Part shown: positions 7,290 to 22,510 of the stretch, in pieces
Position numbering within the stretch: position 1 is the first letter of the stretch
Layout: the number at the start of each line of letters is the position of its first letter
UHGV virus genome: UHGV-0073937
Direction: 5' to 3' (one strand)
DNA length: 22,825 bases
Origin: a virus
Position numbers and translations under genes: made by a program
The notes under the pieces: generated by a model
The model's database searches: none
Seen by the model: the letters and a program-made list of their open reading frames with translations, nothing else
Told to the model about the DNA's origin: nothing

Positions 7290-7479
7290 ACTGCAGGCGC
7301 TGCGTCAGGCGCGCCTTGATTTATTAACCGGTAAACGGGTGGTGTCTGTCCAGAAAGATGGTCGCAGAATTGAATATACGGCTGCTTCTCTGGATGAGCT
7401 TAACCGGGCGATCAATGATGCGGAGTCGGTACTGGGGACAACCCGACGTCGCCGTCGTCCGCTGGGAGTGAGGTTATGA
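7273..7479 (+). CDS. W: Head-tail joining protein, lambda gpW-like
   Basis: 68 aa; LLTGKRVVSVQKDGRRIEYTAASL resembles lambda W; overlaps terL end and portal start as in lambda. Confidence 0.8.
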   Translation: MVTVAELQALRQARLDLLTGKRVVSVQKDGRRIEYTAASLDELNRAINDAESVLGTTRRRRRPLGVRL

Positions 7480-8348
7480 AACGAACGCCTGTCCTGATTG
7501 ATGTGAACGGTGTTCCGCTTCGTGAGAGTCTCAGCTACAACGGTGGCGGCGCAGGATTTGGCGGGCAAATGGCGGAGTGGTTGCCACCGGCGCAGAGTGC
7601 CGATGCGGCCCTGCTGCCCGCGTTGCGTCTGGGGAATGCCCGGGCAGATGATCTGGTGCGCAATAACGGAATAGCGGCTAATGCGGTTGCCCTGCATAAG
7701 GATCACATTGTCGGGCATATGTTTCTGATCAGCTACCGTCCGAACTGGCGCTGGCTGGGGATGCGGGAGACCGCAGCAAAAAGCTTTGTCGATGAGGTGG
7801 AGGCGGCCTGGTCGGAATACGCCGAAGGGATGTTTGGCGAGATCGACGTGGAAGGAAAACGCACGTTCACGGAATTTATCCGTGAAGGTGTGGGCGTTCA
7901 TGCGTTTAACGGCGAAATCTTTGTGCAGCCGGTCTGGGATACAGAAACCACGCAGTTATTCCGTACGCGTTTTAAAGCTGTGAGTCCGAAACGGGTGGAC
8001 ACGCCTGGACACGGTATGGGGAACCGTTTTCTGCGGGCCGGTGTGGAGGTCGATCGATATGGCCGTGCCGTCGCGTACCATATCTGTGAGGATGATTTTC
8101 CGTTCTCTGGTAGTGGACGATGGGAACGGATCCCGCGTGAACTTCCCACCGGGCGTCCGGCCATGCTGCATATTTTCGAGCCGGTGGAGGACGGGCAGAC
8201 CCGTGGGGCTAATCAGTTTTACAGCGTCATGGAACGGCTGAAGATGCTCGATTCCCTGCAGGCAACACAGCTTCAGTCGGCCATAGTGAAGGCGATTTAT
8301 GTCTATCATCTCACCGTAGTTGCCCGCATCGTTCGCCAACTCCACTGA
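7476..8348 (+). pseudogene. B: Portal protein (lambda gpB-like) N-terminal fragment, truncated by island insertion at ~8301
   Basis: First ~275 codons collinear with lambda gpB (GNARADDLVRNNG, FEPVEDGQTRGAN, QSAIVKA); after codon AIY the frame reads into unrelated sequence and stops at 8348. Confidence 0.85.
8289..8301. repeat. Left copy of 13-bp imperfect direct repeat (AAGGCGATTTATG) = putative att core (attL)
   Basis: Matches AAGGCGATGTATG at 18579-18591 (12/13); both copies lie exactly at the breakpoint in the portal reading frame. Confidence 0.65.
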
Positions 8349-8424
8349 AACCCTTGCTGCGTCTGGAATGTCGTTTTCCATACTTTTGATGACCGTTCAT
8401 CACCCTTCCAGTTTTTCGCGGTTT

Positions 8425-8478
8425 TGTGTATTGCAATGTGTATTGCAAATTGGCGATCGGGATGGGTGTGTATTGCAA
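8425..8478. repeat. Three copies of TGTGTATTGCAA (candidate integrase arm-type binding sites) upstream of int
   Basis: Perfect 12-mers at 8425-8436, 8437-8448, 8467-8478; two related copies (GTGTATTGCA) at 18483-18506 near other island end. Confidence 0.55.
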
Positions 8479-8496
8479 ATCTCTTGAGGGCTTTTA

Positions 8497-9738
8497 ATGG
8501 CTATTGAAAACAAACTCAGTGACAAACTGTTAAAGAGTCTTGTCGGAAAACGGCAGGACAAACAAAAAACAATAGCGGATGGGCGCGGGTTGTCTGTGCG
8601 TGTAAGCATGGTTGGGGGGATCAGCTTTGTTTTTTACTATCGTCTTGGTGGCAGGGAATCCCCTCCGGTATGGCTTACACTTGGTCGCTATCCTGACATG
8701 TCTCTTGCAACGGCCAGGCGCATGCGTGATCAGTGCCGTGAATGGCTGGCTGAAAATCTGGACCCCCGCAGGCAAATAAAACTTGCTGCCGAAAAAACTA
8801 TGCAACCAGTGACCGTAAGGGATGCGCTGTTTTACTGGTACGACAATCACGCCACAACAGCCAGAAAAGAGCATGAATATTTAATAAAACGATTTGAAAA
8901 GCATATCTTCCCCTATATCGGTGATATGGCTATAGAACAGTGCAAATTACACACATGGCTTACCGTCTTTGACAGGATCAAAAAAAATGCGCCTGTTATG
9001 TCTGGTGCAATTTTTCTTGATATCAAACAGGCGTTGCGTTTTTGTCGCGTCAGGCAATACATCGCGTGCGATCCCTTTGGAGATATTAACGTAAGTTATG
9101 TCGGGGGCTCATCCGGTATAAGGGATCGCGTTCTTAATATCAATGAAACCGCTGATGTATGGTCTTATGCTTACGGTAATAATTTGCTAACTCTGTCATC
9201 AATATATAACCGAAGAATAATGGTTATCTGCCTGGTGTTTGGTTGCCGACAGCAGGAGGCGAGGCTATCCACCTGGGACGAATGGGATTTAAAAAACTGG
9301 GTATGGACAGTCCCAAAAGAGCACAGCAAAAACAAGGAGGCTATAGTAAGGCCTGTTCCTGACGGAATAAAACAATGGATCGTTAATCTTTACGCAGAAA
9401 CAAAAAATCGCGGTTATGTTGTCGGTTGTGCTTTGCAAAGGGCGACAATAACAGGGGCTGCAAACAGAATATGCAGGCGTCTTGGTCATGATACTAATGG
9501 CTTGTGGTGCATACATGATTTCAGGCGCACATTTTCCACTACGCTTAATGATATGGGGGCGGATCCTTATATTGTCGAACTTCTTTTAGGTCATAAAGTG
9601 AAAGGGGTTGCTGGTGTTTACAATAAAAGCAGGCATATAAAGAAAAAACTTGAGGTGCTTAATATGTGGGTTAATTACCTTAATACGATAGCAGGATTTA
9701 ACAACAACGTTATCGAGCTTAATAAAGAGGTGGTGTGA
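8497..9738 (+). CDS. int: Tyrosine recombinase / integrase, P4-type
   Basis: 413 aa; N-terminal arm-binding-like region (GRGLSVRVS...GGISFVFYYR); C-terminal catalytic region with HDFRRTFST...LLGH...GVYNKS; adjacent to island boundary. Confidence 0.9.
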   Translation: MAIENKLSDKLLKSLVGKRQDKQKTIADGRGLSVRVSMVGGISFVFYYRLGGRESPPVWLTLGRYPDMSLATARRMRDQCREWLAENLDPRRQIKLAAEKTMQPVTVRDALFYWYDNHATTARKEHEYLIKRFEKHIFPYIGDMAIEQCKLHTWLTVFDRIKKNAPVMSGAIFLDIKQALRFCRVRQYIACDPFGDINVSYVGGSSGIRDRVLNINETADVWSYAYGNNLLTLSSIYNRRIMVICLVFGCRQQEARLSTWDEWDLKNWVWTVPKEHSKNKEAIVRPVPDGIKQWIVNLYAETKNRGYVVGCALQRATITGAANRICRRLGHDTNGLWCIHDFRRTFSTTLNDMGADPYIVELLLGHKVKGVAGVYNKSRHIKKKLEVLNMWVNYLNTIAGFNNNVIELNKEVV

Positions 9739-9739
9739 T

Positions 9740-9997
9740 ATGGCAATTTATTCTCTTGTTGATGAAAACGATTTGCGCACAATGAAGGACATTGATCGGT
9801 TCATTCGTGAAAAAGAGTGCATAGCACTTACCACGCTGGCAAACTCAACACGCTGGAAAATGGAGCAGGCAGGTAAATTCCCGCGACGTATCAAGATCGG
9901 TGAACGTGCTGCAGGGTATCGACTTTCAGAGGTTCAGGCATGGATCCGTGGTGAGTGGCATCCTGGATGGAAACCTGGAAAAACAAAACAGCAATAA
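9740..9997 (+). CDS. alpA: AlpA-family transcriptional regulator / excisionase-like protein
   Basis: 85 aa; HTH region IALTTLANSTRWKMEQAGKFPRRIKIGERAAGYRLSEVQAWI resembles AlpA/HTH_17; start ATG overlaps int stop (coupled). Confidence 0.7.
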   Translation: MAIYSLVDENDLRTMKDIDRFIREKECIALTTLANSTRWKMEQAGKFPRRIKIGERAAGYRLSEVQAWIRGEWHPGWKPGKTKQQ

Positions 9998-10010
9998 CCA
10001 GTAAATAATG

Positions 10011-10033
10011 CCCCTCATCACGAGGGGTTTTTT
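10011..10033 (+). terminator. Rho-independent terminator (CCCCTC-ATCAC-GAGGGG + T6)
   Basis: Perfect 6-bp GC stem then TTTTTTG immediately after alpA stop. Confidence 0.7.
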
Positions 10034-10053
10034 GTCTATAAGGTAAAAACGCG

Positions 10054-10632
10054 ATGAATAAAAATATTGCCGTGACGGGCAAGGGGTACGCTCGTCCAGT
10101 GAAAAAATTCTGCGATATTCGTGATCTCGTCGTTCTGCGCTTTGATAGTGTGAACGTTCGTGTGGTGTATCTGAACGGCGATCCGTGGTTTGTTGCAAAA
10201 GATGTTTGTGCTGCGCTGGAACTAACCAATTCGCGTACGGCGTTGCAGATGCTTGATGATGATGAAAAGGGAGTAAATTTAACTTACACCCCAGGAGGAA
10301 ATCAGAATATGAGAATTATCTCTGAGTCAGGTTTCTACAAACTAATAGCCCGCAGCCGCAAAGCAACGACGCCTGGCACATTTGCTCATCGTTTCAGTAA
10401 CTGGGTATTCAGAAATGTGATACCAGGTATCAGAAAAACGGGGACTTATGGTATCCCGTGGGGTGCATTACAGGATTTTTCCCGCCGTAAAGAGCAATAT
10501 CAAATAAGTGCCAGCGAGAAGGGGAGAGAGCTACAGGCATGTAAGCGCAAAAAGCGTGAGCTGGAGGAAGAAGAAAAAACGCTGATACGTGAATATCAGC
10601 CTGAGTTTTACTTTGGTAACCGCATTCAGTGA
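10054..10632 (+). CDS. Bro-N domain protein (putative antirepressor-like)
   Basis: 192 aa; N-terminal region (VVYLNGDPWFVAKDVCAALELTNSRTALQMLDDDEKG...RIISESGFYKLIARSRKATT...FSNWVFRNVIP) typical of Bro-N; charged coiled C-terminus. Confidence 0.65.
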   Translation: MNKNIAVTGKGYARPVKKFCDIRDLVVLRFDSVNVRVVYLNGDPWFVAKDVCAALELTNSRTALQMLDDDEKGVNLTYTPGGNQNMRIISESGFYKLIARSRKATTPGTFAHRFSNWVFRNVIPGIRKTGTYGIPWGALQDFSRRKEQYQISASEKGRELQACKRKKRELEEEEKTLIREYQPEFYFGNRIQ

Positions 10633-10661
10633 CAAAACAAAGGCGACCGGGGGCGGTCGCC
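10630..10661 (-). terminator. Hairpin terminator for leftward small-gene operon (GGCGACCG-GGGG-CGGTCGCC; T-rich on minus strand)
   Basis: 8-bp perfect GC-rich stem; minus-strand downstream sequence TTTGTTTTGTC; sits between convergent genes. Confidence 0.55.
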
Positions 10662-10725
10662 AGTGGGAAAACACTAAACATAAGCACGAGGATGATAGCC
10701 GCTATCAGGTTGGTGGGCAATGTGA

Positions 10726-10935
10726 TCAGCCTGGTGGGCGGTTCCTGTTAGCTTTCATTACCCGGGGCTGTTTATTGAGAAACTCATCAAGCGCAAATTT
10801 TGTAGGCGCTGGTTCTGTATTTGGTGGCATTTGTTTAGCGTGTGCCTTTTCTTTCTGGCGTGCAACAATGCTCTGTAAAAGCAATCTTCGTTGTTCTGCG
10901 AAAATCTCTTCAGTGGATAGGTATTTTTTGCTCAT
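10726..10935 (-). CDS. Hypothetical small protein (leftward switch operon, second gene)
   Basis: 69-aa ORF downstream of 10993..11172 on same strand, followed by hairpin terminator. Confidence 0.45.
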   Translation of the reverse strand: MSKKYLSTEEIFAEQRRLLLQSIVARQKEKAHAKQMPPNTEPAPTKFALDEFLNKQPRVMKANRNRPPG

Positions 10936-10992
10936 AGTGCCGACCTGTAAAGCAATGCGCCGGAGTACCTCACACCACAGCGCTGATAGTGA

Positions 10993-11172
10993 TTATTCTT
11001 GCTCTTTAGCCTTGCGTCGCTGGCGGTATTCAACTTCTCGCTTTAATGCTGCTGTTACAAACTGCCCTGTACTTTCACCAGGCATTTTTACCGCCTCAAC
11101 ATTGTTCATAACTTCATGCGGAACCCTTGCCGCAACTGTTTGTGATTTTGCGTTTACTGCTTTTGTCGCCAT
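10993..11172 (-). CDS. Small putative DNA-binding regulator (possible RHH-type repressor), first gene of leftward operon
   Basis: 59-aa ORF derived by manual translation (below ORF-track size cut-off): MATKAVNAKSQTVAARVPHEVMNNVEAVKMPGESTGQFVTAALKREVEYRQRRKAKEQE; diverges from operator repeats. Confidence 0.45.
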   Translation of the reverse strand: MATKAVNAKSQTVAARVPHEVMNNVEAVKMPGESTGQFVTAALKREVEYRQRRKAKEQE

Positions 11173-11222
11173 GTTGTGTACCCCTCACAAAAAACAAATG
11201 CAGTATGCAGGAAAAAAAACAA

Positions 11223-11274
11223 GTGTTCAACACTTGACGTGTTCAACACCTGGGTTTAAATTGGTGTTCAACAC
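11223..11274. promoter_or_regulatory. Operator/promoter region: three perfect copies of near-palindromic 11-mer GTGTTCAACAC with candidate rightward sigma70 promoter
   Basis: Copies at 11223-11233, 11239-11249, 11264-11274; TTGACG (11234-11239) and TTTAAAT (11255-11261) fit -35/-10 with ~16-nt spacer; lies between divergent operons. Confidence 0.65.
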
Positions 11275-11371
11275 CTTGTTGGTGCAAGGTGCAGAAACGA
11301 CGAAACCCGGCAGTGCGCTAACACTAACCGGGCTTCTAACCACCAACGATAGCAACAGTATCGAGGTAGCT

Positions 11372-11575
11372 ATGAGAAATCATACCACACACCCGCAAGG
11401 GCGGGGCTCGCACAACCTGAATAAATACATCTGGCGTTTTATCGCCCTGAGCACCGCACAACCACGCGTAATACACATCGAGGCCGCCAGCGAACAGGAA
11501 GCCCGGCTGCAATCCCCAACTGGCTGCGTGATGATATTCGCCGCCCGTATTCGTCAGGAGGTATGCCGTGCTTAA
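11372..11575 (+). CDS. Small protein, first gene of rightward operon (possibly Icd-like)
   Basis: 67 aa from ATG 11372 with SD GAGG; MRNHTTHPQGRGSHNLNKYIWRFIALSTAQPRVIHIEAASEQEARLQSPTGCVMIFAARIRQE; family assignment from memory only. Confidence 0.45.
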   Translation: MRNHTTHPQGRGSHNLNKYIWRFIALSTAQPRVIHIEAASEQEARLQSPTGCVMIFAARIRQEVCRA

Positions 11576-11753
11576 AACCTTTCGTGTATTTGCTCGTGCG
11601 GTTAACCCACTAGGCCACACAATTGGTATCGCTCAGAACGTGAAGGCTGTTAATGTTCAGACGGCTATTGCTGCGGTGAGAAGCGAATCATCAGAATATG
11701 GCTTATCACAAGTCATTATCTCAGCAGTGTATGAATTAAAAGAGGTGCATTAA
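11568..11753 (+). CDS. Hypothetical protein
   Basis: 61-aa ORF; start overlaps upstream stop (coupled), part of tightly packed operon. Confidence 0.4.
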   Translation: MLKTFRVFARAVNPLGHTIGIAQNVKAVNVQTAIAAVRSESSEYGLSQVIISAVYELKEVH

Positions 11754-11944
11754 TGCAGGAAATTACATTACACGAAGCCGCTGAACGTGCGCACCAGACA
11801 GAAATTGTTTGCCGCCTTCTTGAGTTATACCCGAACAAAATTACAGATGCTGATATATCCGCGCTGGCGAGCCTACTGGCGCGCCTTTCGGGAAGTGTCG
11901 CTAGTTTCCTGATTGAGGAAGAAAGTAAGCTGGTGGGGGATTAA
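11753..11944 (+). CDS. Hypothetical protein
   Basis: 63-aa ORF; ATG overlaps previous stop (TAATG). Confidence 0.4.
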   Translation: MQEITLHEAAERAHQTEIVCRLLELYPNKITDADISALASLLARLSGSVASFLIEEESKLVGD

Positions 11945-12166
11945 ATGAATACAGAACGAGAAGTCTTTTTTAAATTGTTAGCATGTGCAGAGAGTTCATT
12001 AACTTTAAATAATTCAGCAAAAGCAATATTAAATATGTGGCTTGATTGCATAAATGACAATGAAGATGCAAATATTGCTTATGGCCTGTTGTCACTTATT
12101 GATGAAGCAGCAGAGAAACTTAATGACACAATAAATAGTGCCCTGCTATCAAATAAGTCGAGTTAA
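11945..12166 (+). CDS. Hypothetical protein
   Basis: 73-aa ORF; start overlaps previous stop; AT-rich codon usage suggests separate origin. Confidence 0.4.
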   Translation: MNTEREVFFKLLACAESSLTLNNSAKAILNMWLDCINDNEDANIAYGLLSLIDEAAEKLNDTINSALLSNKSS

Positions 12167-12183
12167 GTCGAAGAATAAATAAT

Positions 12184-12483
12184 ATGGAAATGAAAAATTC
12201 TGGCTTTATTGCCAGCGGCCCCGCTCGGCCTGAATTTATGAACGGCGATATTTACCGCGATAAATACGGCGGCACGGTAACGATTAAAGGCGTGGCAGAA
12301 CGGCGCATCACTTACCGCCGTGAGGGGTATAGCTATGACTGCGTGATGCCTGTTTATCAGTTCCGGCGTGATTTTTCCCTGGTATATGCCGCACCCCGCA
12401 GTAAGCCCATCAGCAGGGAAAAAGCGCGGGGAAACATCCAGAAAATGAAAAGCATGATTAACGCATTCAGGGGCAAAAAATGA
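12184..12483 (+). CDS. Hypothetical protein
   Basis: 99-aa ORF; stop overlaps start of replication protein (ATGA). Confidence 0.45.
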   Translation: MEMKNSGFIASGPARPEFMNGDIYRDKYGGTVTIKGVAERRITYRREGYSYDCVMPVYQFRRDFSLVYAAPRSKPISREKARGNIQKMKSMINAFRGKK

Positions 12484-14231
12484 AACTGGCACCGAACTTA
12501 AAAAAACAGCCACGCGACAGACTGACAGAGGTAATCATCTTTGCAGGTAGTGATGCGTGGAGCCATGCGAAAGAGTGGCAGGAATGGGCGGGTAAACATA
12601 TTGCCGCCGACGATGTGCCGCCTGTCGTGCTGGCTGATGAGCAACTGAAAAACATCACCGATTACCGGATCATTGATGAAGATCGTCAGTGTGTGCGTGT
12701 TTACCGCGCAGGACATATCACAGAGCACAGCATGACGCAGATTGTTACGTTACTGGCTGTGGCTGGAGTGAAGACCGTACACGAATACGCGGGGATTACT
12801 GACACCAGCCCAGTGGATTTATCCGACCAGTTGCCGCGACTCAAAGAGGAATGCGAGCGTGGGGAAAGTCTGGTGCTTAATCTTCCGACGAAGCAAAAGG
12901 CGCAACTTTCACAGATGGCAGACAGTGAACGTGCACAACTACTTGCCGATCGCTTTGATGGTGTGTGTGTTCATGCAGAAAGTGAAATCGTCCACGTATG
13001 GCGCGGCGGGGTATGGTGTCCGGTCAGCACAATGGAGCTGAGCCGCGAAATGGTGGCGATCTATTCAGAGCACAGGGCCACGTTCAGCAAACGTGTAATC
13101 AATAACGCCGTGGAAGCGTTAAAAGTTATTGCCGACCCCATGGGGGAGCCGTCCAGTGATTTGCTACCGTTCACTAATGGTGTGCTTAACCTGAAAACGG
13201 GAGAATTTTCTCCGCACTCGCCGGAGCACTGGAGCACCACGCACAATGGCATTGAGTACACGCCACCAGTAGCAGGGGAAAACATCCGCGATAATGCGCC
13301 AAATTTCCATAAATGGCTTGAACATGCTGCAGGAAAAGACCCGCGCAAGATGATGCGTATATGTGCCGCGTTATACATGATTATGGCGAACCGCTACGAC
13401 TGGCAGATGTTCATTGAGGCCACCGGAGACGGGGGAAGCGGAAAGAGCACATTTACCCATATTGCCACCCTGCTTGCTGGCAAACAGAACACCGTAAGCG
13501 CAGAGATGACATCACTCGATGATGCAGGTGGGCGCGCGCAGGTTGTCGGGAGTCGTCTTATCGTCCTTGCCGATCAGCCGAAATATACGGGTGAAGGCAC
13601 TGGCATCAAGAAAATCACGGGAGGCGATCCCGTCGAAATTAACCCGAAATATGAGAAGCGATTCACGACGATAATAAGGGCGGTGGTACTGGCGACCAAT
13701 AACGACCCTATGATCTTTACCGAACGGGCCGGAGGTGTGTCACGCCGTCGGGTGATTTTCCGGTTCGACAACATTGTAAGGGAGGACGAAAAAGACAAGG
13801 AATTACCGGAAAAGATAGCGGCAGAAATCCCCGTAATTATCCGCCGCTTGCTGGCTAACTTTGCTGACCCTGAAAAGGCACGAGCTTTACTACTGGAACA
13901 GCGAGACGGTGATGAAGCTCTGGCAATAAAGCAGCAAACGGATCCGGTTGTTGAGCTTTGCGCGGCGCTGGAGTTTCTGGAGGAAGCTCGTGGGCTAATG
14001 ATGGGCGGTGGTGGTGACTCCGTGAAGTACACGACCAGAAACAGCCTTTACCGTGTCTATATGGCCTTCATGGCATACACAGGAAAGGGGAAATGTTTGA
14101 GCGTGAATGAGTTCGGAAAGGCTATGAGGTCAGCGGCGAAAGTTTACGGATATGAATATATTACTCGAAAAGTTAAGGGAGTCACGCAGACCAACGCAAC
14201 GACTACTGATGATTGCGATGCGTTTTTATAA
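12480..14231 (+). CDS. Replication protein: primase C-terminal/D5-N domain with SF3-type P-loop NTPase (pri-rep-like)
   Basis: 583 aa; Walker A GDGGSGKST, downstream Walker B-like RLIVLADQ; architecture typical of P4-alpha/PICI pri-rep proteins; followed by iterons. Confidence 0.8.
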   Translation: MKLAPNLKKQPRDRLTEVIIFAGSDAWSHAKEWQEWAGKHIAADDVPPVVLADEQLKNITDYRIIDEDRQCVRVYRAGHITEHSMTQIVTLLAVAGVKTVHEYAGITDTSPVDLSDQLPRLKEECERGESLVLNLPTKQKAQLSQMADSERAQLLADRFDGVCVHAESEIVHVWRGGVWCPVSTMELSREMVAIYSEHRATFSKRVINNAVEALKVIADPMGEPSSDLLPFTNGVLNLKTGEFSPHSPEHWSTTHNGIEYTPPVAGENIRDNAPNFHKWLEHAAGKDPRKMMRICAALYMIMANRYDWQMFIEATGDGGSGKSTFTHIATLLAGKQNTVSAEMTSLDDAGGRAQVVGSRLIVLADQPKYTGEGTGIKKITGGDPVEINPKYEKRFTTIIRAVVLATNNDPMIFTERAGGVSRRRVIFRFDNIVREDEKDKELPEKIAAEIPVIIRRLLANFADPEKARALLLEQRDGDEALAIKQQTDPVVELCAALEFLEEARGLMMGGGGDSVKYTTRNSLYRVYMAFMAYTGKGKCLSVNEFGKAMRSAAKVYGYEYITRKVKGVTQTNATTTDDCDAFL

Positions 14232-14239
14232 AAAATGGC

Positions 14240-14480
14240 AATGGTTATCTACCTTGTCTACCTGACTGAAAGAAAATACTTTTATTTCAATGTATTAATG
14301 CAGGTAGATAACTATTTTTCACTGTCTACCTGTTATCTACCTTATCTACCCATTTTTGTAGACAGGTAAGGAGACGGGTAGAGATGAGGTAGACAGCTAT
14401 TTGGGGCTGTCTACCTCCCTGAAACCCGCGCCATTACTGGCCTGATAACTAATCAGGTAGACAAGGTAGACAAGGTGGTG
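14240..14480. repeat. Iteron array (>=10 copies of GGTAGACA / TATCTACC in both orientations) = putative origin of replication
   Basis: e.g. TTATCTACCTTGTCTACC, CAGGTAGATAAC, CTGTCTACCTGTTATCTACCTTATCTACC, GGTAGACAAGGTAGACAAGG; non-coding, directly downstream of rep gene. Confidence 0.75.
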
Positions 14481-14520
14481 GCGCACAAAAAACTTTTTAA
14501 ACGAGGGGGTAAAAATAAAA

Positions 14521-14778
14521 ATGCACACATCAGGAAAACTGAACAAACATATAAAGCCACATTATCGCGCCCTTGATATGGCTGAACACTGGCTAAGGGT
14601 GGCGATTAAGGCAATAGACCGCAACGCCGGGGAAGGATACGCGAAAGCACATCCCGAACTGATAAGCGCATTCATGACAACGGCGGCTGCAAACTTTGCC
14701 GCGCTGACCGAACGGGAGATTGCCGAAGCGGAGGAAGTGACAACCATCAATATTAAGTCCGGAGAGCAGGCAGCTTGA
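14521..14778 (+). CDS. Hypothetical protein
   Basis: 85-aa ORF; stop overlaps SSB start. Confidence 0.45.
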   Translation: MHTSGKLNKHIKPHYRALDMAEHWLRVAIKAIDRNAGEGYAKAHPELISAFMTTAAANFAALTEREIAEAEEVTTINIKSGEQAA

Positions 14779-15224
14779 CGGCGCAAATAGCAGCTTACGG
14801 GCGGCTGGTGGACGACCCACAGGTAAAACATACCAGCAAGGGAGCACCCATGACACTGGCACGGATGACGGTATCTTTGCCATGCAGCCAGGCAGATGAC
14901 GGAACGGCGACGATGTGGTTATCTGTCCTGGCGTTTGGCAGACAAGCCGACGCGCTGGCAAAGCATCACAAAGGCGAACTCCTGAGCGTGGCGGGTAATA
15001 TGCAGGTGAGCCAGTGGAGCGGACAGAACGGGGAAACGCGGCAGGGCTGGCAGGTTATCGCAGACAGCGTAATCAGTGCCAGAACGGTGCGACCGGGCGG
15101 CAAAAAAGGTCAACAGGGGCAGGCTACTGATGCACTGAACAGAGCAAAACAACAGGCAGATCAGCAAGGAAGCCATCCACCAGTGGGAGATAATGAGCAA
15201 TGGGGAGATGATATTCCGTTTTAA
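14775..15224 (+). CDS. ssb: Single-stranded DNA-binding protein homologue (SSB-like, TTG start)
   Basis: 149 aa; OB-fold-like N-terminus; Gln/Gly-rich linker; C-terminal acidic tip GDDIPF matching the SSB DDDIPF tail; SD GGAGAG 8 nt upstream of TTG. Confidence 0.75.
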   Translation: MTAQIAAYGRLVDDPQVKHTSKGAPMTLARMTVSLPCSQADDGTATMWLSVLAFGRQADALAKHHKGELLSVAGNMQVSQWSGQNGETRQGWQVIADSVISARTVRPGGKKGQQGQATDALNRAKQQADQQGSHPPVGDNEQWGDDIPF

Positions 15225-15243
15225 ATTCTGCAAACAAAAAGAT

Positions 15244-15268
15244 GCCGGAAAAAAATAGATTTTCCGGC
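15244..15268. terminator. Hairpin (GCCGGAAAA...TTTTCCGGC), possible terminator after ssb
   Basis: 9-bp inverted repeat; T-run better on minus strand so orientation ambiguous. Confidence 0.4.
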
Positions 15269-15435
15269 ATGCTACATAAATCCCGACCAAAGGAAGTAAA
15301 TACATTAACACGAATTATCAGCACTGAAGTTGTCACGGCATATTTTATACAACATTGCACTTGGTTGCATGTATTCGCATAGCAGACATCGGTAATAGAA
15401 TATATTCACAATTATTTGTAATGAATGTAAAGAGG

Positions 15436-16482
15436 ATGAGTATGGTTGATTTATATTCGCCTACACAGCTTGTGCAGGTGGCTAATGCTGAAGATGTGCA
15501 AAAAAAATTAAATGCGTTGTTTACCAGTTTGTTTTTCACTCGCTCGGTAATGTTTGAATCGAGAGACATTATTCTTGATACGATCGACGATCCAAATATC
15601 CCGATCGCGGCGTTTTGCTCTCCTATGGTGGGCAGTAAAGTTTCACGAGATGAGGGATACGAATCAAAAACAATTCGCCCTGGCTATATGAAACCGAAAA
15701 GCAGCATTGATCCAAATAAGTTAGCTGTGCGCCCTGCTGGTGTATCACCTGAACAATACAATGCTTTTGGGGCGCGTAATATTAAAGTTAAACAGGCGAT
15801 TGTAAATCAGGCTAAAGCTATACGTGCACGTATTGAATGGCTTGCTGTTCAGGCAATCACAACGGGGAAAAATATCATTGAGGGCGATGGTATTGAACGT
15901 TATGAACTGGACTGGAATATAAAACCACAAAATATTATCACGCAGTCTGGCGGTGCTGAGTGGTCAGGTAAGGATAAAGAAACTTTTGATCCAAATGATG
16001 ATATTGAGAGCTACGCAGAATTTAGTGAGGGCGTCACTAATATCATCATTATGGGCGGTAATGTATGGAAGAAATACCGTTCATTCAGAGCGATAAAAGA
16101 GGCTCTGGATACCCGCCGTGGTTCTAATTCCGAACTGGAAACGGCCCTTAAAGACCTTGGTGATTCGGTGAGTTTTAAAGGGTATATGGGCGATGTTGCG
16201 ATTGTTGTTTACAGCGGACGTTATACCGACGAGGACGGAACTGAAAAACATTTCCTTGATCCTGATTTGATGGTGCTTGGCAATACGGCTCTTCAGGGGA
16301 TTGTCGCCTATGGCGGTATTCAGGATCCGGAGCTAATCCGAATGGGGCTGACTAAAGCCGAACTTGCACCGAAAAACTATATTGTGCCTGGTGATCCGGC
16401 TATTGAATATGTGCAGACACATTCAGCACCACAGCCAATACCGGCCCGCATCAATCGTTTTGTTACCGTTCGCATTGGCTAA
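15436..16482 (+). CDS. Major capsid protein, divergent lambda gpE homologue (island-encoded)
   Basis: 348 aa; collinear similarity with lambda E across C-terminal two-thirds (NIITQSGGAEWSGKDKETFDPNDDIE, DTRRGSNSELETALKDLG, YMGDVAIVVYSG, LMVLGNTA, VPGDPAIE); start MSMVDLY parallels lambda MSMYTTA; start could be 15442. Confidence 0.85.
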   Translation: MSMVDLYSPTQLVQVANAEDVQKKLNALFTSLFFTRSVMFESRDIILDTIDDPNIPIAAFCSPMVGSKVSRDEGYESKTIRPGYMKPKSSIDPNKLAVRPAGVSPEQYNAFGARNIKVKQAIVNQAKAIRARIEWLAVQAITTGKNIIEGDGIERYELDWNIKPQNIITQSGGAEWSGKDKETFDPNDDIESYAEFSEGVTNIIIMGGNVWKKYRSFRAIKEALDTRRGSNSELETALKDLGDSVSFKGYMGDVAIVVYSGRYTDEDGTEKHFLDPDLMVLGNTALQGIVAYGGIQDPELIRMGLTKAELAPKNYIVPGDPAIEYVQTHSAPQPIPARINRFVTVRIG

Positions 16483-16491
16483 GGGGGAGCA

Positions 16492-16833
16492 ATGGCTACT
16501 CATTACACTGAACTCATGGCTGGCACTGAAGCACTGGTGACTACGCTGGGGATATTTTCAGCTAATAAAGGGGTAATTCCTGCATTTACGCCACTGATGC
16601 AGGAAGATGCAACAGGTGCACTGGTGGTATGGGATGGTTCGAGCGTAGGTAAAGCGGTTTATGTTTCCGCTGTACAAATCGACACAGCGAAAAAAACACA
16701 GGCACAGGTTTATAAGACAGGTGTTTTAAATGTTGATGCTCTGAACTGGCCTGAGTCTGTAAAAGAACTGTCGGCAAAGGTTGCCGCGTTTGTTGGCTCA
16801 GGTATTTCTGTTCAGCCGCTGGCTCGTGTGTAA
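16492..16833 (+). CDS. Head decoration protein, divergent lambda gpD homologue (island-encoded)
   Basis: 113 aa; VVWDGSSVGKAVYVSAVQIDT...YKTGVLNVDALNWPES parallels lambda [22 protein letters not shown]...[16 protein letters not shown]; strong SD AAGGGGGAG. Confidence 0.75.
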   Translation: MATHYTELMAGTEALVTTLGIFSANKGVIPAFTPLMQEDATGALVVWDGSSVGKAVYVSAVQIDTAKKTQAQVYKTGVLNVDALNWPESVKELSAKVAAFVGSGISVQPLARV

Positions 16834-16844
16834 AGGGGGATACA

Positions 16845-17228
16845 ATGCAGAATCATTACAATGACCTTAAGCCAATTGCCGAAATGATGTATCCGGATCC
16901 AGCAGTAGAGGAATTAAAGGCTATTGCTGACAAAATGCGTTTAAGTGAACGCCTTGTTGATATGAATCAGGTGATGGAACTTACTACCCTTAGCCGTCGC
17001 ACATTGCTAAACCTTGAGGCTCGCGGAGAGTTCCCCGAACGCGTACAGGTTACGGAAGGGCGTAAGGCCTGGTATTTAAGTGAAGTGATCGACTGGATAA
17101 ACAATATTCCTCGATCTTCTGAATATTGCCGCGTACCTGTCCCAAAAAAGCCAGATGCGGCGCTATGCCTCAAGATTGAGCGTGTACGTCGCAATGCACG
17201 GGATGGTCGCTATAAGTTGATTGGTTGA
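16845..17228 (+). CDS. AlpA-like HTH domain protein immediately upstream of island cos
   Basis: 127 aa; central HTH resembling AlpA/HTH_17 (MNQVMELTTLSRRTLLNLEARGEFPERVQVTEGRKAWYLSEVIDWI); strong SD. Confidence 0.55.
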   Translation: MQNHYNDLKPIAEMMYPDPAVEELKAIADKMRLSERLVDMNQVMELTTLSRRTLLNLEARGEFPERVQVTEGRKAWYLSEVIDWINNIPRSSEYCRVPVPKKPDAALCLKIERVRRNARDGRYKLIG

Positions 17229-17254
17229 TGAAATTAGGGCCCGTTCTGGCTGGC

Positions 17255-17330
17255 GGGTCCTTTCCGGCGATCCGGTAGGCTACGGGGCGGCGACCTTGCG
17301 GGTTTTCGCTATTTATGAGCCTTTTTCGGG
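17255..17330 (+). other. cos: Lambda-type cos site 2 (island cos): cosN GGGCGGCGACCT at 17285-17296
   Basis: ~65 bp (17255-17319) near-identical to 4625-4688 including cosQ/cosN; downstream cosB-equivalent sequence differs from cos 1. Confidence 0.8.
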
Positions 17331-17429
17331 TGCTGGTGGTGGTTTTGTTGTTCGCTCTATCTCTATGAATAAAAAGGAAAAGATAAAGCCAATACACCAA
17401 CCTGAAACATTACTTAAGTGGGGATATTG

Positions 17430-17972
17430 ATGAAATCGCACCTGATGAACAAAAAAAACATGGCGCAAAGCTGCCGTGTAAGTGCGACAGCGTTCGACAA
17501 GTGGGGAGTGACTCCCGTTGAACGTAAAGGCCGCGAGGCGTTTTATGATGTTGCCAGCGTAATAGACAATCGGGTTAGCAATGCAATTAACCAGATTACA
17601 GACGACAAAGGCGAGATTGATGATGATGAACTCCTACGAGTCAGGATCAGATTGCTGACAGCACAGGCAGAGGCGCAGGAGCTTAAAAACGAGCGCGAAC
17701 GCGGCGACGTTATTGATACAGCGTTTTGTATATACGTGCTTTCAAAATTGGCGAGTCAGATTTCTTCAATCATGGACAGCCTGCCGCTTGCCATGACAAG
17801 GAAGTTTCCCGACATGAAGCCGTCTATGCTGGATGGACTGAAAAAAGAAGTTATCAGAGCCTGTAACGCATGCGCAAAACTTGACGAAAACATACCGCTG
17901 ATGCTGTCCGATTATCTGATGGAAACTGCCGGAAACGTACCGGATAAGTTGCAGCCGAATAAAGATAAGTAA
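17430..17972 (+). CDS. Terminase small subunit, divergent Nu1-like (island-encoded)
   Basis: 180 aa from ATG 17430; homologous to 4883..5389 product and lambda Nu1 (ATAFDKWGVTPVERKGREAFYDV; AFCIYVLSKLASQISSIMDSLPLAMTRKFPDM) but clearly divergent. Confidence 0.85.
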   Translation: MKSHLMNKKNMAQSCRVSATAFDKWGVTPVERKGREAFYDVASVIDNRVSNAINQITDDKGEIDDDELLRVRIRLLTAQAEAQELKNERERGDVIDTAFCIYVLSKLASQISSIMDSLPLAMTRKFPDMKPSMLDGLKKEVIRACNACAKLDENIPLMLSDYLMETAGNVPDKLQPNKDK

Positions 17973-17983
17973 CGTAGTACGCT

Positions 17984-18286
17984 ATGACTGAATCCGAAAT
18001 ACTGCGATTAATCCGCCGTGCTTGTGGAATCAGCAAGCAGCATGACGAACAGGCCACGCAGCCGGACAGCGTGACCGCAGATAATTATGTGCGTGTAGTG
18101 GCTGAGGTGATGCGCCGTGACGGTATTGAGCTTAACGGCGTGGATATGCGCAACATACGAACAAGAGTCCTTGAGTTGCTGGCATATCGTCGCCGTAATG
18201 ATGATTCAGCCCACCAGCCAAATCAGCACAGCAACGACAGAATAGCCCGACACAGAAAAACCACGAATATGGGGTTTTTGTTATGA
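17984..18286 (+). CDS. Hypothetical protein (last island gene)
   Basis: 100-aa ORF; Arg-rich; no recognised motif. Confidence 0.4.
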   Translation: MTESEILRLIRRACGISKQHDEQATQPDSVTADNYVRVVAEVMRRDGIELNGVDMRNIRTRVLELLAYRRRNDDSAHQPNQHSNDRIARHRKTTNMGFLL

Positions 18287-18482
18287 CATGGTCATGATGA
18301 CCACTCATACAAAACAGGTAAAGCCCACCAGCCTGATTAAAGGTTAACCGGAAAAAAGCCAGGTATCCAATCTCGATATGGGGATCCCTATATCGACATT
18401 AACGCCCACTAAAACTGTGCATATATGCATAGAAAAAGCATCCACCAGCTTTATGACGGATGCCGCTCATCTTATAAATAAT

Positions 18483-18506
18483 CGTGTATTGCAGTGTGTA
18501 TTGCGA
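18483..18506. repeat. Two copies of GTGTATTGCA-type repeat near right island end (candidate arm sites)
   Basis: CGTGTATTGCAGTGTGTATTGCGA; same motif as 8425-8478. Confidence 0.5.
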
Positions 18507-18578
18507 CTCCTTTAAACGATAGGTCTGAGCATTCGTAATGTACTGTTTTTAAATTTTATTTTTTCCTGTCTTTTCATA

Positions 18579-18591
18579 AAGGCGATGTATG
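18579..18591. repeat. Right copy of 13-bp direct repeat (AAGGCGATGTATG) = putative att core (attR)
   Basis: 12/13 match to 8289-8301; portal reading frame (KAMYAATIESEL) resumes exactly here. Confidence 0.65.
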
Positions 18592-19336
18592 CCGCCACCA
18601 TTGAGAGTGAGCTGGATACGCAGTCAGCGATGGATTTTATTCTGGGCGCGAACAGTCAGGAGCAGCGGGAAAGGCTGACCGGCTGGATTGGTGAAATTGC
18701 CGCGTATTACGCCGCAGCACCGGTCCGGCTGGGAGGCGCAAAAGTGCCGCACCTGATGCCGGGTGACTCACTGAACCTGCAGGCTACTCCGTGTTTGAGC
18801 AGTCACTGCTGCGGTATATCGCTGCCGGGCTGGGTGTCTCGTATGAGCAGCTTTCCCGGAATTACGCCCAGATGAGCTACTCCACGGCACGGGCCAGCGC
18901 GAACGAGTCGTGGGCGCACTTTATGGGGCGGCGAAAATTCGTCGCATCCCGTCAGGCGAGTCAGATGTTTCTGTGCTGGCTGGAAGAGGCCATCGTTCGC
19001 CGCGTGGTGACGTTACCTTCAAAAGCGCGCTTCAGTTTTCAGGAAGCCCGTAGTGCCTGGGGGAACTGCGACTGGATAGGCTCCGGTCGTATGGCCATCG
19101 ATGGTCTGAAAGAAGTTCAGGAAGCGGTGATGCTGATAGAAGCCGGACTGAGCACCTACGAGAAAGAGTGCGCGAAACGCGGTGACGACTATCAGGAAAT
19201 TTTTGCCCAGCAGGTCCGTGAAACGATGGAGCGCCGCGCGGCTGGTCTTAAACCGCCCGCCTGGGCGGCTGAGGCATTTGAATCCGGGCTGCGACAATCA
19301 ACAGAGGAGGAGAAGAGTGACAGCAGAGCTGCGTAA
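18579..19336 (+). pseudogene. B: Portal protein (lambda gpB) C-terminal fragment, additionally frameshifted near 18767-18790
   Basis: MYAATIESELDTQSAMDFILGANSQEQRERLTGWIGEIAAYY... then frame change; second frame continues VFEQSLLRYIAAGLGVSYEQL... to the overlap with C; matches lambda gpB C-terminus. Confidence 0.85.
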
Positions 19337-20636: not shown

Positions 20637-20645
20637 GGGATGTTT

Positions 20646-20978
20646 ATGACGAGCAAAGAAACCTTTACCCATTACCAGCCGCTGGGCAACAGTGACCCGG
20701 CTCATACCGCAACCGCGCCCGGCGGATTGAGTGCGACAGCGCCTGCAATGACCCCGCTGATGCTGGACACCTCCACCCGTAAGCTGGTTGCATGGGATGG
20801 CACCACCGACGGTGCTGCTGTTGGCATTCTGGCGGTTGCTGCTGACCAGACCAGCACCGCGCTGACGTTCTACAAGTCCGGCACGTTCCGTTATGAGGAT
20901 GTGCTCTGGCCGGAGGCTGCCAGCGACGAGACGAAAAAACGGACCGCGTTTGCCGGAACGGCAATCAGCATCGTTTAA
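20646..20978 (+). CDS. D: Lambda gpD head decoration protein
   Basis: 110 aa [27 protein letters not shown]... near-identical to lambda D. Confidence 0.95.
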
Positions 20979-20996
20979 CCTTACCCTTCATCACTA

Positions 20997-21021
20997 AAGG
21001 CCGCCTGTGCGGCTTTTTTTA
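20997..21021 (+). terminator. Hairpin + T-run between D and E (GGCCGC-CTGT-GCGGC + T7)
   Basis: GC stem followed by TTTTTTT; may act as attenuating terminator or RNA stability element. Confidence 0.5.
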
Positions 21022-21033
21022 CGGGATTTTTTT

Positions 21034-22059
21034 ATGTCGATGTACACAACCGCCCAGCTGCTGGCGGCAAATGAGCAGAAATTTAAGTTTGATCCGCTGT
21101 TTCTGCGTCTCTTTTTCCGTGAGAGCTATCCCTTCACCACGGAGAAAGTCTATCTCTCACAAATTCCGGGACTGGTAAACATGGCGCTGTACGTTTCGCC
21201 GATTGTTTCCGGTGAGGTTATCCGCTCCCGTGGCGGCTCCACCTCTGAATTTACGCCGGGATATGTCAAACCCAAGCATGAAGTGAATCCGCAGATGACC
21301 CTGCGTCGCCTGCCGGATGAAGATCCGCAGAATCTGGCGGACCCGGCTTACCGCCGCCGTCGCATCATTATGCAGAACATGCGTGACGAAGAGCTGGCCA
21401 TTGCCCAGGTCGAAGAGATGCAGGCAGTTTCTGCCGTGCTTAAGGGCAAATACACCATGACCGGTGAAGCCTTCGATCCGGTTGAGGTGGATATGGGCCG
21501 CAGTGCGGCGAATAACATCACGCAGTCCGGCGGCACGGAGTGGAGCAAGCGTGACAAGTCCACGTATGACCCGACCGACGATATCGAAGCCTACGCGCTG
21601 AACGCCAGCGGTGTGGTGAATATCATCGTGTTTGATCCGAAAGGCTGGGCGCTGTTCCGTTCCTTCAAAGCCGTCAAGGAGAAGCTGGATACCCGTCGTG
21701 GCTCTAATTCCGAGCTGGAGACAGCGGTGAAAGACCTGGGTAAAGCGGTGTCCTATAAGGGGATGTATGGCGATGTTGCCATCGTCGTGTATTCCGGACA
21801 GTACGTGGAAAACGGTGTCAAAAAGAACTTCCTGCCGGACAACACGATGGTGCTGGGGAACACTCAGGCACGCGGTCTGCGTACCTATGGCTGTATTCAG
21901 GATGCGGACGCACAGCGCGAAGGCATTAACGCCTCTGCCCGTTACCCGAAAAACTGGGTGACCACCGGCGATCCGGCGCGTGAGTTCACCATGATTCAGT
22001 CAGCACCGCTGATGCTGCTGGCTGACCCTGATGAGTTCGTGTCCGTACAACTGGCGTAA
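21034..22059 (+). CDS. E: Lambda gpE major capsid protein
   Basis: 341 aa MSMYTTAQLLAANEQKFKFDPLFLRLFFRESYPF... near-identical to lambda E. Confidence 0.95.
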   Translation: MSMYTTAQLLAANEQKFKFDPLFLRLFFRESYPFTTEKVYLSQIPGLVNMALYVSPIVSGEVIRSRGGSTSEFTPGYVKPKHEVNPQMTLRRLPDEDPQNLADPAYRRRRIIMQNMRDEELAIAQVEEMQAVSAVLKGKYTMTGEAFDPVEVDMGRSAANNITQSGGTEWSKRDKSTYDPTDDIEAYALNASGVVNIIVFDPKGWALFRSFKAVKEKLDTRRGSNSELETAVKDLGKAVSYKGMYGDVAIVVYSGQYVENGVKKNFLPDNTMVLGNTQARGLRTYGCIQDADAQREGINASARYPKNWVTTGDPAREFTMIQSAPLMLLADPDEFVSVQLA

Positions 22060-22061
22060 TC

Positions 22062-22086
22062 ATGGCCCTTCGGGGCCATTTTCTCT
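22062..22086 (+). terminator. Hairpin after E (ATGGCCC-TTCG-GGGCCAT + T-rich)
   Basis: 7-bp perfect stem with TTCG loop followed by TTTCTCTC. Confidence 0.45.
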
Positions 22087-22100
22087 CTGTGGAGGAGTCC

Positions 22101-22499: not shown

Positions 22500-22510
22500 C
22501 GGGAGGCGCT

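What the first reader, a model, noticed from the sequence alone, without database searches (positions are those of the whole stretch)
15436..16833. Island encodes divergent paralogues of lambda major capsid protein E and decoration protein D
Two adjacent strongly-SD genes in the island are clear but divergent homologues of lambda E (348 aa) and D (113 aa). The resident prophage carries its own E and D at 20646-22059, which are near-identical to lambda. Gene order in the island is E-like then D-like, inverted relative to lambda D-E. Known satellites usually resize helper capsids with scaffold-like proteins or carry a complete capsid module; supplying only an alternative shell subunit and its decoration trimer, while relying on helper portal, protease/scaffold and terminase, would be a distinct strategy, plausibly yielding smaller capsids matched to a ~10-kb genome.
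Basis: partly seen in the sequence, partly recalled or inferred. Interest (0 to 1): 0.9.

Follow-up and report, generated by a model that had tools for sequence, protein, structure and literature searches.

The report
Satellite island's own capsid and decoration genes
The two genes really are divergent copies of the lambda head-shell (E) and head-cement (D) genes, carried by a phage satellite (PICI) inserted in the portal gene of a lambda-like prophage; this gene pair is already published and widespread, and the only knock-outs reported showed no effect.

Summary
Window 15442-16482 encodes a full-length lambda-E-family capsid protein, 42% identical to the resident E. Window 16492-16833 encodes a lambda-D-family decoration protein, 38% identical to the resident D. 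Both lie in a 10.29-kb Gram-negative PICI inserted in codon ~274 of the helper prophage's portal gene.

The arrangement is not new. The pair is orthologous (55%/54%) to c1499/c1500 of the model island EcCICFT073, and c1499 is PDB entry 3BQW. Fillol-Salom et al. 2018 deleted both genes. [quoted passage not shown] Satellites embedded in lambda late genes, including B, were described by Tommasini et al. 2023. SaPIbov5 Ccm is a precedent for a satellite carrying a capsid-protein homologue.

What I add:
- This E/D allele is intact in 397 of 5,426 complete E. coli genomes.
- dN/dS is 0.02-0.11.
- It belongs to a clade with no close match in 50,697 phage records, found in the same E-then-D order in satellites of Serratia, Edwardsiella and Lelliottia.
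- It sits next to a perfect lambda cosN and an island TerS.

The pair is probably functional, but its role is unknown. Small capsids are not supported and not excluded. Interest is low.

The parts
15442..16482 (+).
   Evidence: 42% identical to resident E over the full length. Pfam PF03864. 55% identical to EcCICFT073 c1499. AlphaFold model matches 3BQW at TM 0.88 and lambda gpE at TM 0.82-0.86. dN/dS 0.02-0.09.
16492..16833 (+). Island head-decoration protein, lambda gpD / phage 21 SHP family (113 aa)
   Evidence: 38% identical to resident D. Pfam PF02924. 54% identical to EcCICFT073 c1500. PDB 1TD0 at E=4e-16. dN/dS 0.05-0.11.
15225..15441 (+). Intergenic region upstream of the E-like gene: GC hairpin at 15242-15270, a sigma-70-like site at 15374-15401, and an invariant AAAGAGG Shine-Dalgarno sequence
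   Evidence: The hairpin position and the Shine-Dalgarno sequence are conserved among PICIs. The number of promoter matches in the scan is not above chance.
16845..17228 (+). AlpA-family HTH regulator immediately after the D-like gene, in the same tight operon
   Evidence: Pfam Phage_AlpA; phrog_2790. It occupies the same position in L001, L004, L005, L007-L010.
17255..17403 (+). Island cos site, with a perfect lambda cosN (GGGCGGCGACCT) at 17285-17296
   Evidence: 78.5% identical to the helper cos region 4625-4773. cosN matches exactly. Alignment with lambda and EcCICFT073 cos.
17430..17972 (+). Island small terminase (Nu1 family)
   Evidence: 46% identical to helper Nu1. Pfam Phage_Nu1. No similarity to the EcCICFT073 ORF at the corresponding late-zone position (L003:42660-43094, a 144-aa hypothetical protein).
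8297..18586 (+). The whole island, a 10,290-bp helper-embedded PICI. Gene order: int 8497-9738, alpA 9740-9997, Bro-N 10054-10632, primase 12480-14231, ori iterons 14240-14475, SSB 14775-15224, then the late module.
   Evidence: The same island is found in 52 complete E. coli genomes.
8289..8296 (+). attL core AAGGCGAT, inside portal codons 272-274
   Evidence: The only exact repeat of at least 8 bp shared by the two junctions. The portal alignment ends here.
18579..18586 (+). attR core AAGGCGAT; the portal reading frame resumes here (KAMYAATIESELD)
7476..8296 (+). Helper portal gene B, 5' fragment (codons 1-274), CFT073 phage-4 type
   Evidence: 99% amino-acid identity to the CFT073 portal but only ~66% nucleotide identity to lambda.
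18587..19336 (+). Helper portal gene B, 3' fragment, lambda type, with a 22-bp deletion near 18782 that shifts the frame
   Evidence: two tblastn segments in different frames, 98.6% and 98.9% to lambda B.
20646..20978 (+). Resident prophage decoration gene D
   Evidence: 96.4% amino-acid identity to lambda D.
21034..22059 (+). Resident prophage major capsid gene E
   Evidence: 99.4% amino-acid identity to lambda E.

Best explanation
The two genes are the capsid-shell (gpE-family) and cement (gpD-family) genes of the late/packaging module of a Gram-negative phage-inducible chromosomal island (PICI). This island is of the helper-embedded type: it sits in codon ~274 of the portal gene of a lambdoid prophage and points the same way as the late operon. 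The pair is orthologous to c1499/c1500 of EcCICFT073.

Shown here:
- Both are full-length, intact members of the lambda E and D families.
- Both are under strong purifying selection.
- They diverge together as a pair.
- They belong to a clade that has no close match among sequenced phages and was found in satellite (PICI) context at every locus examined.
- They head a tightly packed operon with an AlpA-like regulator, a lambda-type cos site and an island TerS.

Inferred: they are made late, from the island's own promoter and/or from read-through of the helper's late transcript. They act together as a matched shell-and-cement pair that assembles on the helper's portal and protease/scaffold, contributing to, or partly replacing, the helper's E and D in heads. 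Helper TerL, working with island TerS, then fills those heads from the island's cos site. On published data for the orthologues, this contribution is redundant with common helpers and does not change head size. The role is therefore probably conditional, mattering only with particular or defective helpers.
For: Homology and fold. Orthology to c1499/c1500, and 3BQW being c1499. Purifying selection: E dN/dS 0.019-0.091 and D 0.047-0.111 against relatives that are 84-100% identical. Prevalence: intact and annotated in 397 of 5,426 complete E. coli genomes. Clade separation: no record among 50,697 phage records exceeds 42% identity. Homologue identities run from 99% down to ~52% and then drop to 44% or less for phage-type E, and an NJ tree splits the two groups. 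Context: homologues in Serratia, Edwardsiella and Lelliottia all sit in int-alpA-primase...E-D islands, one of them again inside a portal gene. Co-divergence of D with E: (Cedecea 80/69%, Scandinavium 74/65%, Serratia 75/59%, Lelliottia 52/50%). Operon with cos and TerS. Some relatives add an S49 protease gene after D, which suggests real use in head building. Patches shared between island and phage E genes suggest interchangeable parts.
Against: In EcCICFT073, deleting c1499 or c1500 changed neither island transfer nor interference with lambda, and the authors state they found no phenotype for c1499 (PMC6092414). No particle proteomics or EM shows these proteins in virions. It is unknown whether a shell protein only 42% identical to the helper's can use the helper's scaffold and portal or co-assemble with helper E. 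The promoter-like site upstream is not above chance (5 found, 7.6 expected). In this window the helper portal carries a frameshift, so this particular composite may be unable to make particles at all.
Confidence: 0.5

Rival explanations
1. Capsid-size redirection. The island's shell protein, alone or at the vertices as SaPIbov5 Ccm does, forces smaller heads that fit one or two island genomes and exclude the helper genome. The island's D-like protein cements the altered lattice.
For: There are precedents: Ccm is a capsid-protein homologue that occupies pentamers and yields T=4 heads (PMC8569155), and PmCI172 encodes a capsid homologue and makes small heads (PMC6092414). Redirection can depend on the helper: SaPIpT1028 is packaged in large heads by 80alpha, and its Rcm protein redirects the capsid of phi7206 (PMC12409344). 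The 10.29-kb island is about one fifth of lambda's length. As inference only, scaling lambda's 48.5 kb by T^1.5 gives about 21 kb for T=4 (two island units) and about 14 kb for T=3. A matched D-like partner would be needed if the lattice sites change.
Against: With lambda as helper, all DNA packaged from EcCICFT073 lysates was phage-sized, and the deletions did not relieve interference (PMC6092414; restated in PMC6739421). Four island units (41.2 kb) fit the lambda packaging window. No sequence feature I examined points to altered curvature.
Confidence: 0.18
2. Backup copies. Embedding in, or recombining with, the helper's late operon disrupts or delays the helper's head genes. The island carries E and D so that shell protein is available regardless.
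For: The commonest embedded-satellite site is inside gene E itself (201 of 491; PMC10111431), and locus L005 shows such an island carrying E-D. The authors of that paper propose this idea.
Against: The same E-D pair is carried by islands in chromosomal sites away from any helper: next to tRNA-Pro, next to fis, and EcCICFT073 itself. In this window the interrupted gene is the portal, for which the island has no copy. At 42% identity the island copy is far from a simple duplicate of the helper gene.
Confidence: 0.12
3. Interference. The island proteins co-assemble with helper E and D and poison helper head assembly, lowering phage yield.
For: Satellites generally interfere with their helpers. 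Divergent subunits of the same fold could be dominant-negative.
Against: Deleting c1499 or c1500 did not restore lambda plaquing on EcCICFT073 carriers (PMC6092414). Interference in that island is attributed to Rpp (PMC6739421). Poisoned heads would also harm the satellite's own transfer.
Confidence: 0.08
4. Passenger genes with no current role, captured from a phage and simply carried along.
For: No knock-out phenotype in the one system tested (PMC6092414).
Against: dN/dS is 0.02-0.11. The ORFs are intact in about 400 genomes. The gene order is conserved across genera at 52-99% identity. No close phage donor exists among 50,697 phage records.
Confidence: 0.04

Closest known systems
EcCICFT073 c1499 (capsid protein, PDB 3BQW) and c1500 (head decoration protein), Fillol-Salom et al. 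2018
   Same: Same two families, same E-then-D order, and the same position downstream of primase/SSB and upstream of cos in a ~10-kb int-alpA-pri island. Identity is 55% and 54%.
   Different: This island has a Nu1-type TerS, and nothing in it resembles the EcCICFT073 ORF at the corresponding late-zone position. It sits inside a prophage portal gene rather than at a chromosomal site. Its E-like protein has Tyr where lambda E and c1499 have Trp308.
Helper-embedded PICIs (HE-PICI, e.g. 11capE), Tommasini, Mageeney and Williams 2023
   Same: A PICI integrated within, and pointing the same way as, a lambda-type late gene, carrying its own capsid gene. Sites in gene B (Phage_portal_2) are among the 14 described. 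The integrase is 53% identical to that of an E-site embedded island.
   Different: In this window the two portal halves are of different phage types, and the 3' half carries a 22-bp deletion. I could not match the site to a specific named site group.
SaPIbov5 Ccm (Staphylococcus)
   Same: A cos-type satellite that carries a homologue of its helper's major capsid protein but no portal or protease.
   Different: Ccm is proven to redirect head size and shape by occupying pentamers. No decoration partner is involved, the capsid lineage is unrelated, and no such effect has been shown for the E. coli proteins.
Capsid-forming PICIs (cf-PICI, e.g. EcCIEDL933)
   Same: Satellites of the same broad family that encode capsid proteins.
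   Different: cf-PICIs encode a complete head and packaging module and take only tails from the helper. This island has only the shell, cement and TerS genes.
Lambda gpE / gpD (and phage 21 SHP)
   Same: Same folds and families over the full length, and presumably the same shell-plus-trimer-cement relationship.
   Different: Only 42% and 38% identical, in reversed gene order, and in a separate clade that has no close match in the 50,697 phage records searched.

Membership tests
Lambda gpE-type major capsid protein (Pfam PF03864, HK97 fold) | Profile match above the curated threshold over the whole domain | tested here: met
   141.7 bits against a cut-off of 22.9, profile positions 4-327 of 329.
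Lambda gpE-type major capsid protein (Pfam PF03864, HK97 fold) | HK97-type fold that superposes on solved lambda gpE | tested here: met
   AlphaFold model (pLDDT 76, pTM 0.78). Foldseek TM 0.85 to 7SJ5, 0.82-0.85 to 7VI9, 0.88 to 3BQW.
Lambda gpE-type major capsid protein (Pfam PF03864, HK97 fold) | Assembles into an icosahedral shell on portal and scaffold | not testable with these tools
   Needs expression and EM.
gpD/SHP head-decoration protein (Pfam PF02924) | Profile match above threshold and alignment to solved gpD/SHP | tested here: met
   56.4 bits against 29.1. 1TD0 at E=3.8e-16 and lambda gpD chains at about 8e-12.
gpD/SHP head-decoration protein (Pfam PF02924) | Binds as trimers at three-fold sites of the expanded shell | not testable with these tools
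   No complex modelling or experiment was available.
Gram-negative PICI (EcCICFT073 type) | int and alpA at one end, with all key genes in one direction | tested here: met
   int 8497-9738 and alpA 9740-9997; all assigned island genes are on the + strand.
Gram-negative PICI (EcCICFT073 type) | Primase/replication gene followed by an iteron origin | tested here: met
   D5_N/DUF5906 primase at 12480-14231. GGTAGAC/GTCTACC iterons at 14240-14475.
Gram-negative PICI (EcCICFT073 type) | About 10-15 kb, with no tail, lysis, portal or large terminase genes | tested here: met
   10,290 bp; family scans of all ORFs.
Gram-negative PICI (EcCICFT073 type) | A means of hijacking packaging: helper-type cos plus TerS or Rpp | tested here: met
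   Perfect cosN at 17285. Nu1-family TerS, 46% identical to the helper's.
Gram-negative PICI (EcCICFT073 type) | Helper-phage-dependent induction and high-frequency transfer | not testable with these tools
   Experimental.
Helper-embedded PICI (HE-PICI) | [quoted passage not shown] | tested here: met
   Portal gene split at codon ~274; 8-bp core AAGGCGAT at both junctions.
Helper-embedded PICI (HE-PICI) | Integrase belongs to the HE-PICI clade | tested here: inconclusive
   53% identical to an E-site embedded island's integrase and 40% to EcCICFT073's. No tree against the published clade was made.
Helper-embedded PICI (HE-PICI) | Doubled DNA motif flanking the attP core | tested here: inconclusive
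   GTGTATTGC is repeated at 8425-8480 and 18484-18504. I could not compare it with the published motif.
Capsid-forming PICI (cf-PICI) | Encodes a complete head module (portal, protease, connectors, terminase) | tested here: not met
   Only capsid, decoration and TerS genes were found.
Ccm-type capsid-size redirection (works-like comparison) | The satellite carries a homologue of the helper's major capsid protein | tested here: met
Ccm-type capsid-size redirection (works-like comparison) | Small heads are produced and depend on that gene | not testable with these tools
   Reported negative for the EcCICFT073 orthologue with lambda (PMC6092414). Untested for this island.

The most novel reading that the evidence does not exclude
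The satellite-specific E/D pair builds satellite-only shells, possibly of a smaller triangulation number, on the helper's portal and scaffold, but only with certain helper types. The negative result for EcCICFT073 with lambda and phage 4 would then reflect the choice of helper. This would be capsid redirection by replacing the whole shell and supplying a dedicated cement protein, a mechanism not yet shown for any satellite.
Probability: 0.15. Interest if true: 0.65.

Novelty: already known. Interest (0 to 1): 0.22.

Why it matters
As a discovery it matters little. The gene pair, its presence in most reference Gram-negative PICIs, a crystal structure of one member, knock-outs, and the embedding of such islands in lambda late genes are all in the literature. 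What stays open is the function. The knock-outs had no effect, yet the pair is strongly conserved, belongs to a clade found only in satellite context in every case examined here, and occurs in about 7% of complete E. coli genomes in this allele alone. A 2025 paper from the field still says the genes behind small-capsid formation in Gram-negative PICIs are unknown (PMC12409344). Settling what these proteins do would show how far lambda-type satellites have moved toward building their own heads.

Tried and rejected
- cf-PICI membership: rejected. No portal, protease, connector or TerL gene is in the island.
- Recent capture from the resident prophage: rejected. Identity is only 42%/38%, and no phage record exceeds 42%.
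- Pseudogene or relic: rejected on dN/dS and intactness.
- Rfam scan of the window: only a cspA thermoregulator in the prophage, nothing in the island.
- Promoter/terminator scan around the late module: promoter-like sites are not above the shuffled expectation, so no expression claim rests on it.
- Literature searches for a later functional study of PICI E/D: nothing beyond the 2018 knock-outs.
- Search for W308A: no usable information on the Trp-to-Tyr difference.
- Search for the source genome by either junction: no complete genome is colinear with the window.
- Interface-level comparison with the lambda capsid structure: not possible, because coordinates could not be loaded.

Full report
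**The observation**

The window is the late region of a lambdoid prophage. It reads Nu1, A, W, portal B, C, D, E, interrupted by a foreign block.

The ORF at 15436/15442-16482 aligns end to end with the resident E gene (21007/21034-22059). Identity is 146/349 (42%), E=2e-86, with ten gap positions. The next ORF, 16492-16833, aligns with the resident D: 40/106 identical (38%), E=1e-17.

Family scans agree. PHROGs assigns the two ORFs to 'major head protein' and 'head decoration'. Pfam assigns them to Phage_cap_E (141.7 bits, cut-off 22.9) and HDPD (56.4 bits, cut-off 29.1).

The resident genes are 99.4% (E) and 96.4% (D) identical to lambda's. The order in the island is E then D. The Shine-Dalgarno sequences are strong.

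The ATG at 15436 overlaps the Shine-Dalgarno sequence. The real start is almost certainly 15442, which RefSeq uses in relatives.

**The surroundings**

All assigned island genes run rightward:

| Feature | Coordinates |
|---|---|
| Tyrosine integrase | 8497-9738 |
| AlpA | 9740-9997 |
| Bro-N protein | 10054-10632 |
| Small ORFs | following Bro-N |
| D5/DUF5906 primase | 12480-14231 |
| Iterons (GGTAGAC/GTCTACC) | 14240-14475 |
| SSB | 14775-15224 |
| E-like | 15442-16482 |
| D-like | 16492-16833 |
| Second AlpA-family regulator | 16845-17228 |
| Nu1-family small terminase | 17430-17972 |
| 100-aa ORF | 17984-18286 |

Just upstream of the small terminase gene is a 149-bp stretch that is 78.5% identical to the helper's cos region. 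It includes a perfect lambda cosN, GGGCGGCGACCT, at 17285. The island TerS is 46% identical to the helper's Nu1.

The portal gene stops matching an intact portal at codon ~274 on the left. It resumes with KAMYAATIESELD on the right. An 8-bp block, AAGGCGAT, lies at both junctions (8289-8296 and 18579-18586).

The element is therefore a 10,290-bp satellite of the Gram-negative PICI kind, embedded in the helper's portal gene and pointing the same way as the late operon. It has no portal, protease/scaffold, large terminase, tail or lysis genes.

**Comparison with what is published**

The E. coli model island EcCICFT073 (CFT073 coordinates 1,377,930-1,388,654, locus L003) has the same layout. It carries a 'major capsid protein' followed by a 'head decoration protein'. 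The window's proteins are 55% and 54% identical to these, which is closer than to any phage protein.

Fillol-Salom et al. 2018 (PMC6092414) name these genes c1499 and c1500 and compare them with SaPIbov5 Ccm. They deleted each gene. Neither deletion restored lambda plaquing or altered island transfer. All DNA packaged with lambda as helper was phage-sized. They state that they could find no phenotype for c1499. The 2019 follow-up repeats that this island is packaged in phage-sized capsids (PMC6739421).

PDB entry 3BQW, 'putative capsid protein of prophage (E. coli CFT073)', is 100% identical to c1499. It is the best structural match to my model of the window's protein (TM 0.88), ahead of lambda gpE (TM 0.82-0.86).

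Tommasini, Mageeney and Williams (PMC10111431; preprint 10.1101/2022.07.18.500453) describe 491 'helper-embedded' PICIs at 14 sites in lambda late genes A, B, C, E, V, T, H, L and J. They note that a capsid gene is present in 21 of 29 reference Gram-negative PICIs, and they discuss it as a possible backup copy.

SaPIbov5 Ccm is a satellite-borne capsid-protein homologue that occupies pentamers and yields T=4 heads (PMC8569155). The idea of a satellite supplying only a shell subunit is therefore not new either.

**What the sequence data add**

- **Prevalence.** This E/D allele is present and annotated intact in 397 of 5,426 complete E. coli genomes, mostly at 95-99% nucleotide identity. The whole island is found in 52 of them.
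- **Selection.** Against relatives that are 84-100% identical at the protein level, dN/dS is 0.019-0.091 for E and 0.047-0.111 for D. Both genes are under strong purifying selection.
- **No phage counterpart.** No record among 50,697 phage genomes exceeds 42% identity to the island E; the best hit is lambda itself.
- **A separate clade.** In the large protein collection, homologue identities run from 99% down to about 52% and then drop to 44% or less for ordinary phage E proteins. A neighbour-joining tree separates the two groups.
- **Satellite context across genera.** Three divergent members were looked up in their genomes: Serratia plymuthica (75%), Edwardsiella tarda (59%) and Lelliottia (52%). 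All lie in int-alpA-primase...E-D islands. The Edwardsiella island is again inside a portal gene. The Lelliottia island has an S49 protease gene after D.
- **Co-divergence.** D diverges in step with E across genera.
- **Shared patches.** Window 16077-16219 is 75% identical at the nucleotide level to resident E 21657-21799. A motif in c1499 is shared with a CFT073 prophage E. Both point to occasional exchange between island and phage genes.

**Interpretation**

Identity and membership are secure. Function is not.

Conservation, the matched divergence of the pair, the position in one operon with cos and TerS, and the relatives that add a protease gene all indicate working structural proteins. 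They probably assemble on helper-supplied portal and scaffold. The published knock-outs show that any such contribution is dispensable with the helpers tested and does not shrink heads with lambda.

I therefore favour a conditional, helper-dependent structural role (about 0.5). The rivals are size redirection (about 0.18), backup of disrupted helper genes (about 0.12), interference (about 0.08) and dead cargo (about 0.04).

Size redirection cannot be excluded. This TerS-type island has not been tested. Redirection can depend on the helper, as SaPIpT1028 shows (PMC12409344). That 2025 paper also says the genes behind small capsids in Gram-negative PICIs remain unknown.

Four island units (41.2 kb) fit lambda's packaging window, so small heads are not required.

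**Verdict**

The finding is real but already known: same genes, same order, same kind of island, same kind of insertion. Interest is low. A modest residual value lies in the unsolved function.

Noticed in passing
window 4770-8296 versus 18587-22825: The two sides of the island come from different lambdoid lineages. The left side (Nu1, A, W, portal codons 1-274) is 96-100% identical to CFT073 phage 4 / the EC28 prophage and only ~66-69% to lambda. The right side (rest of the portal, C, D, E) is 97% identical to lambda. Other genomes with this island have matching flanks: both lambda-type (SCU-106, A0 34/86, 20KM2222) or both phage-4-type (EC28). Only 1 of 5,426 complete genomes has an uninterrupted portal of this hybrid type. 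The window therefore looks like a recombinant whose crossover lies in the island or in the ~160-bp conserved block around the att core. Embedded satellites may act as portable homology that shuffles helper late operons.
   Followed up: partly
window ~18782 (portal 3' fragment 18587-19336): There is a 22-bp deletion relative to SCU-106 and lambda B. It removes codons 343-349 and shifts the frame. The helper's portal would stay broken even after precise excision of the island, so this composite probably cannot make particles without another prophage.
   Followed up: yes
window 8425-8480 and 18484-18504: The motif GTGTATTGC(A) is repeated three times near attL and twice near attR. These are probably integrase arm sites and may be the 'doubled motif' reported for embedded PICIs.
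   Followed up: partly
window 18287-18586: The region between the last island ORF and attR is about 330-520 bp shorter than in all close relatives. Their matches split into two pieces spanning 1,233-1,419 bp for a 901-bp query.
   Followed up: no
window 17221-17430: A 69-aa ORF (phrog_11159, no Pfam hit) overlaps the island's cos site. It may be a real gene or simply an open frame across cos.
   Followed up: no
window 16384-16386 (E-like codon 315 in 348-aa numbering): The island E-like protein has Tyr where lambda E has Trp308. PDB entry 7SJ5 is a W308A mutant of lambda E. EcCICFT073 c1499 and the phage E proteins keep Trp; the 84%-identical relative also has Tyr.
   Followed up: partly
L012 10409-11752 (Lelliottia island next to fis): A related island carries an S49 peptidase gene (lambda C-like) directly after its E-D pair, so some islands hold a larger share of the head module.
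   Followed up: no
proteins P0005 (463 aa) and P0077 (470 aa): Single-contig ORFs with both Phage_cap_E and HDPD domains, meaning E and D fused in the island's order. They may be assembly or frameshift artefacts, or real fusions.
   Followed up: no
window 10500-15500: The island itself is mosaic. Its two ends are 99-100% identical to the copies in EC28, A0 34/86 and 20KM2222. The Bro-to-SSB middle matches different relatives segment by segment, at 72-99% identity.
   Followed up: partly
window 2291-2706: Rfam finds a cspA thermoregulator (113.7 bits) in front of a 71-aa cold-shock-type ORF in the prophage.
   Followed up: no
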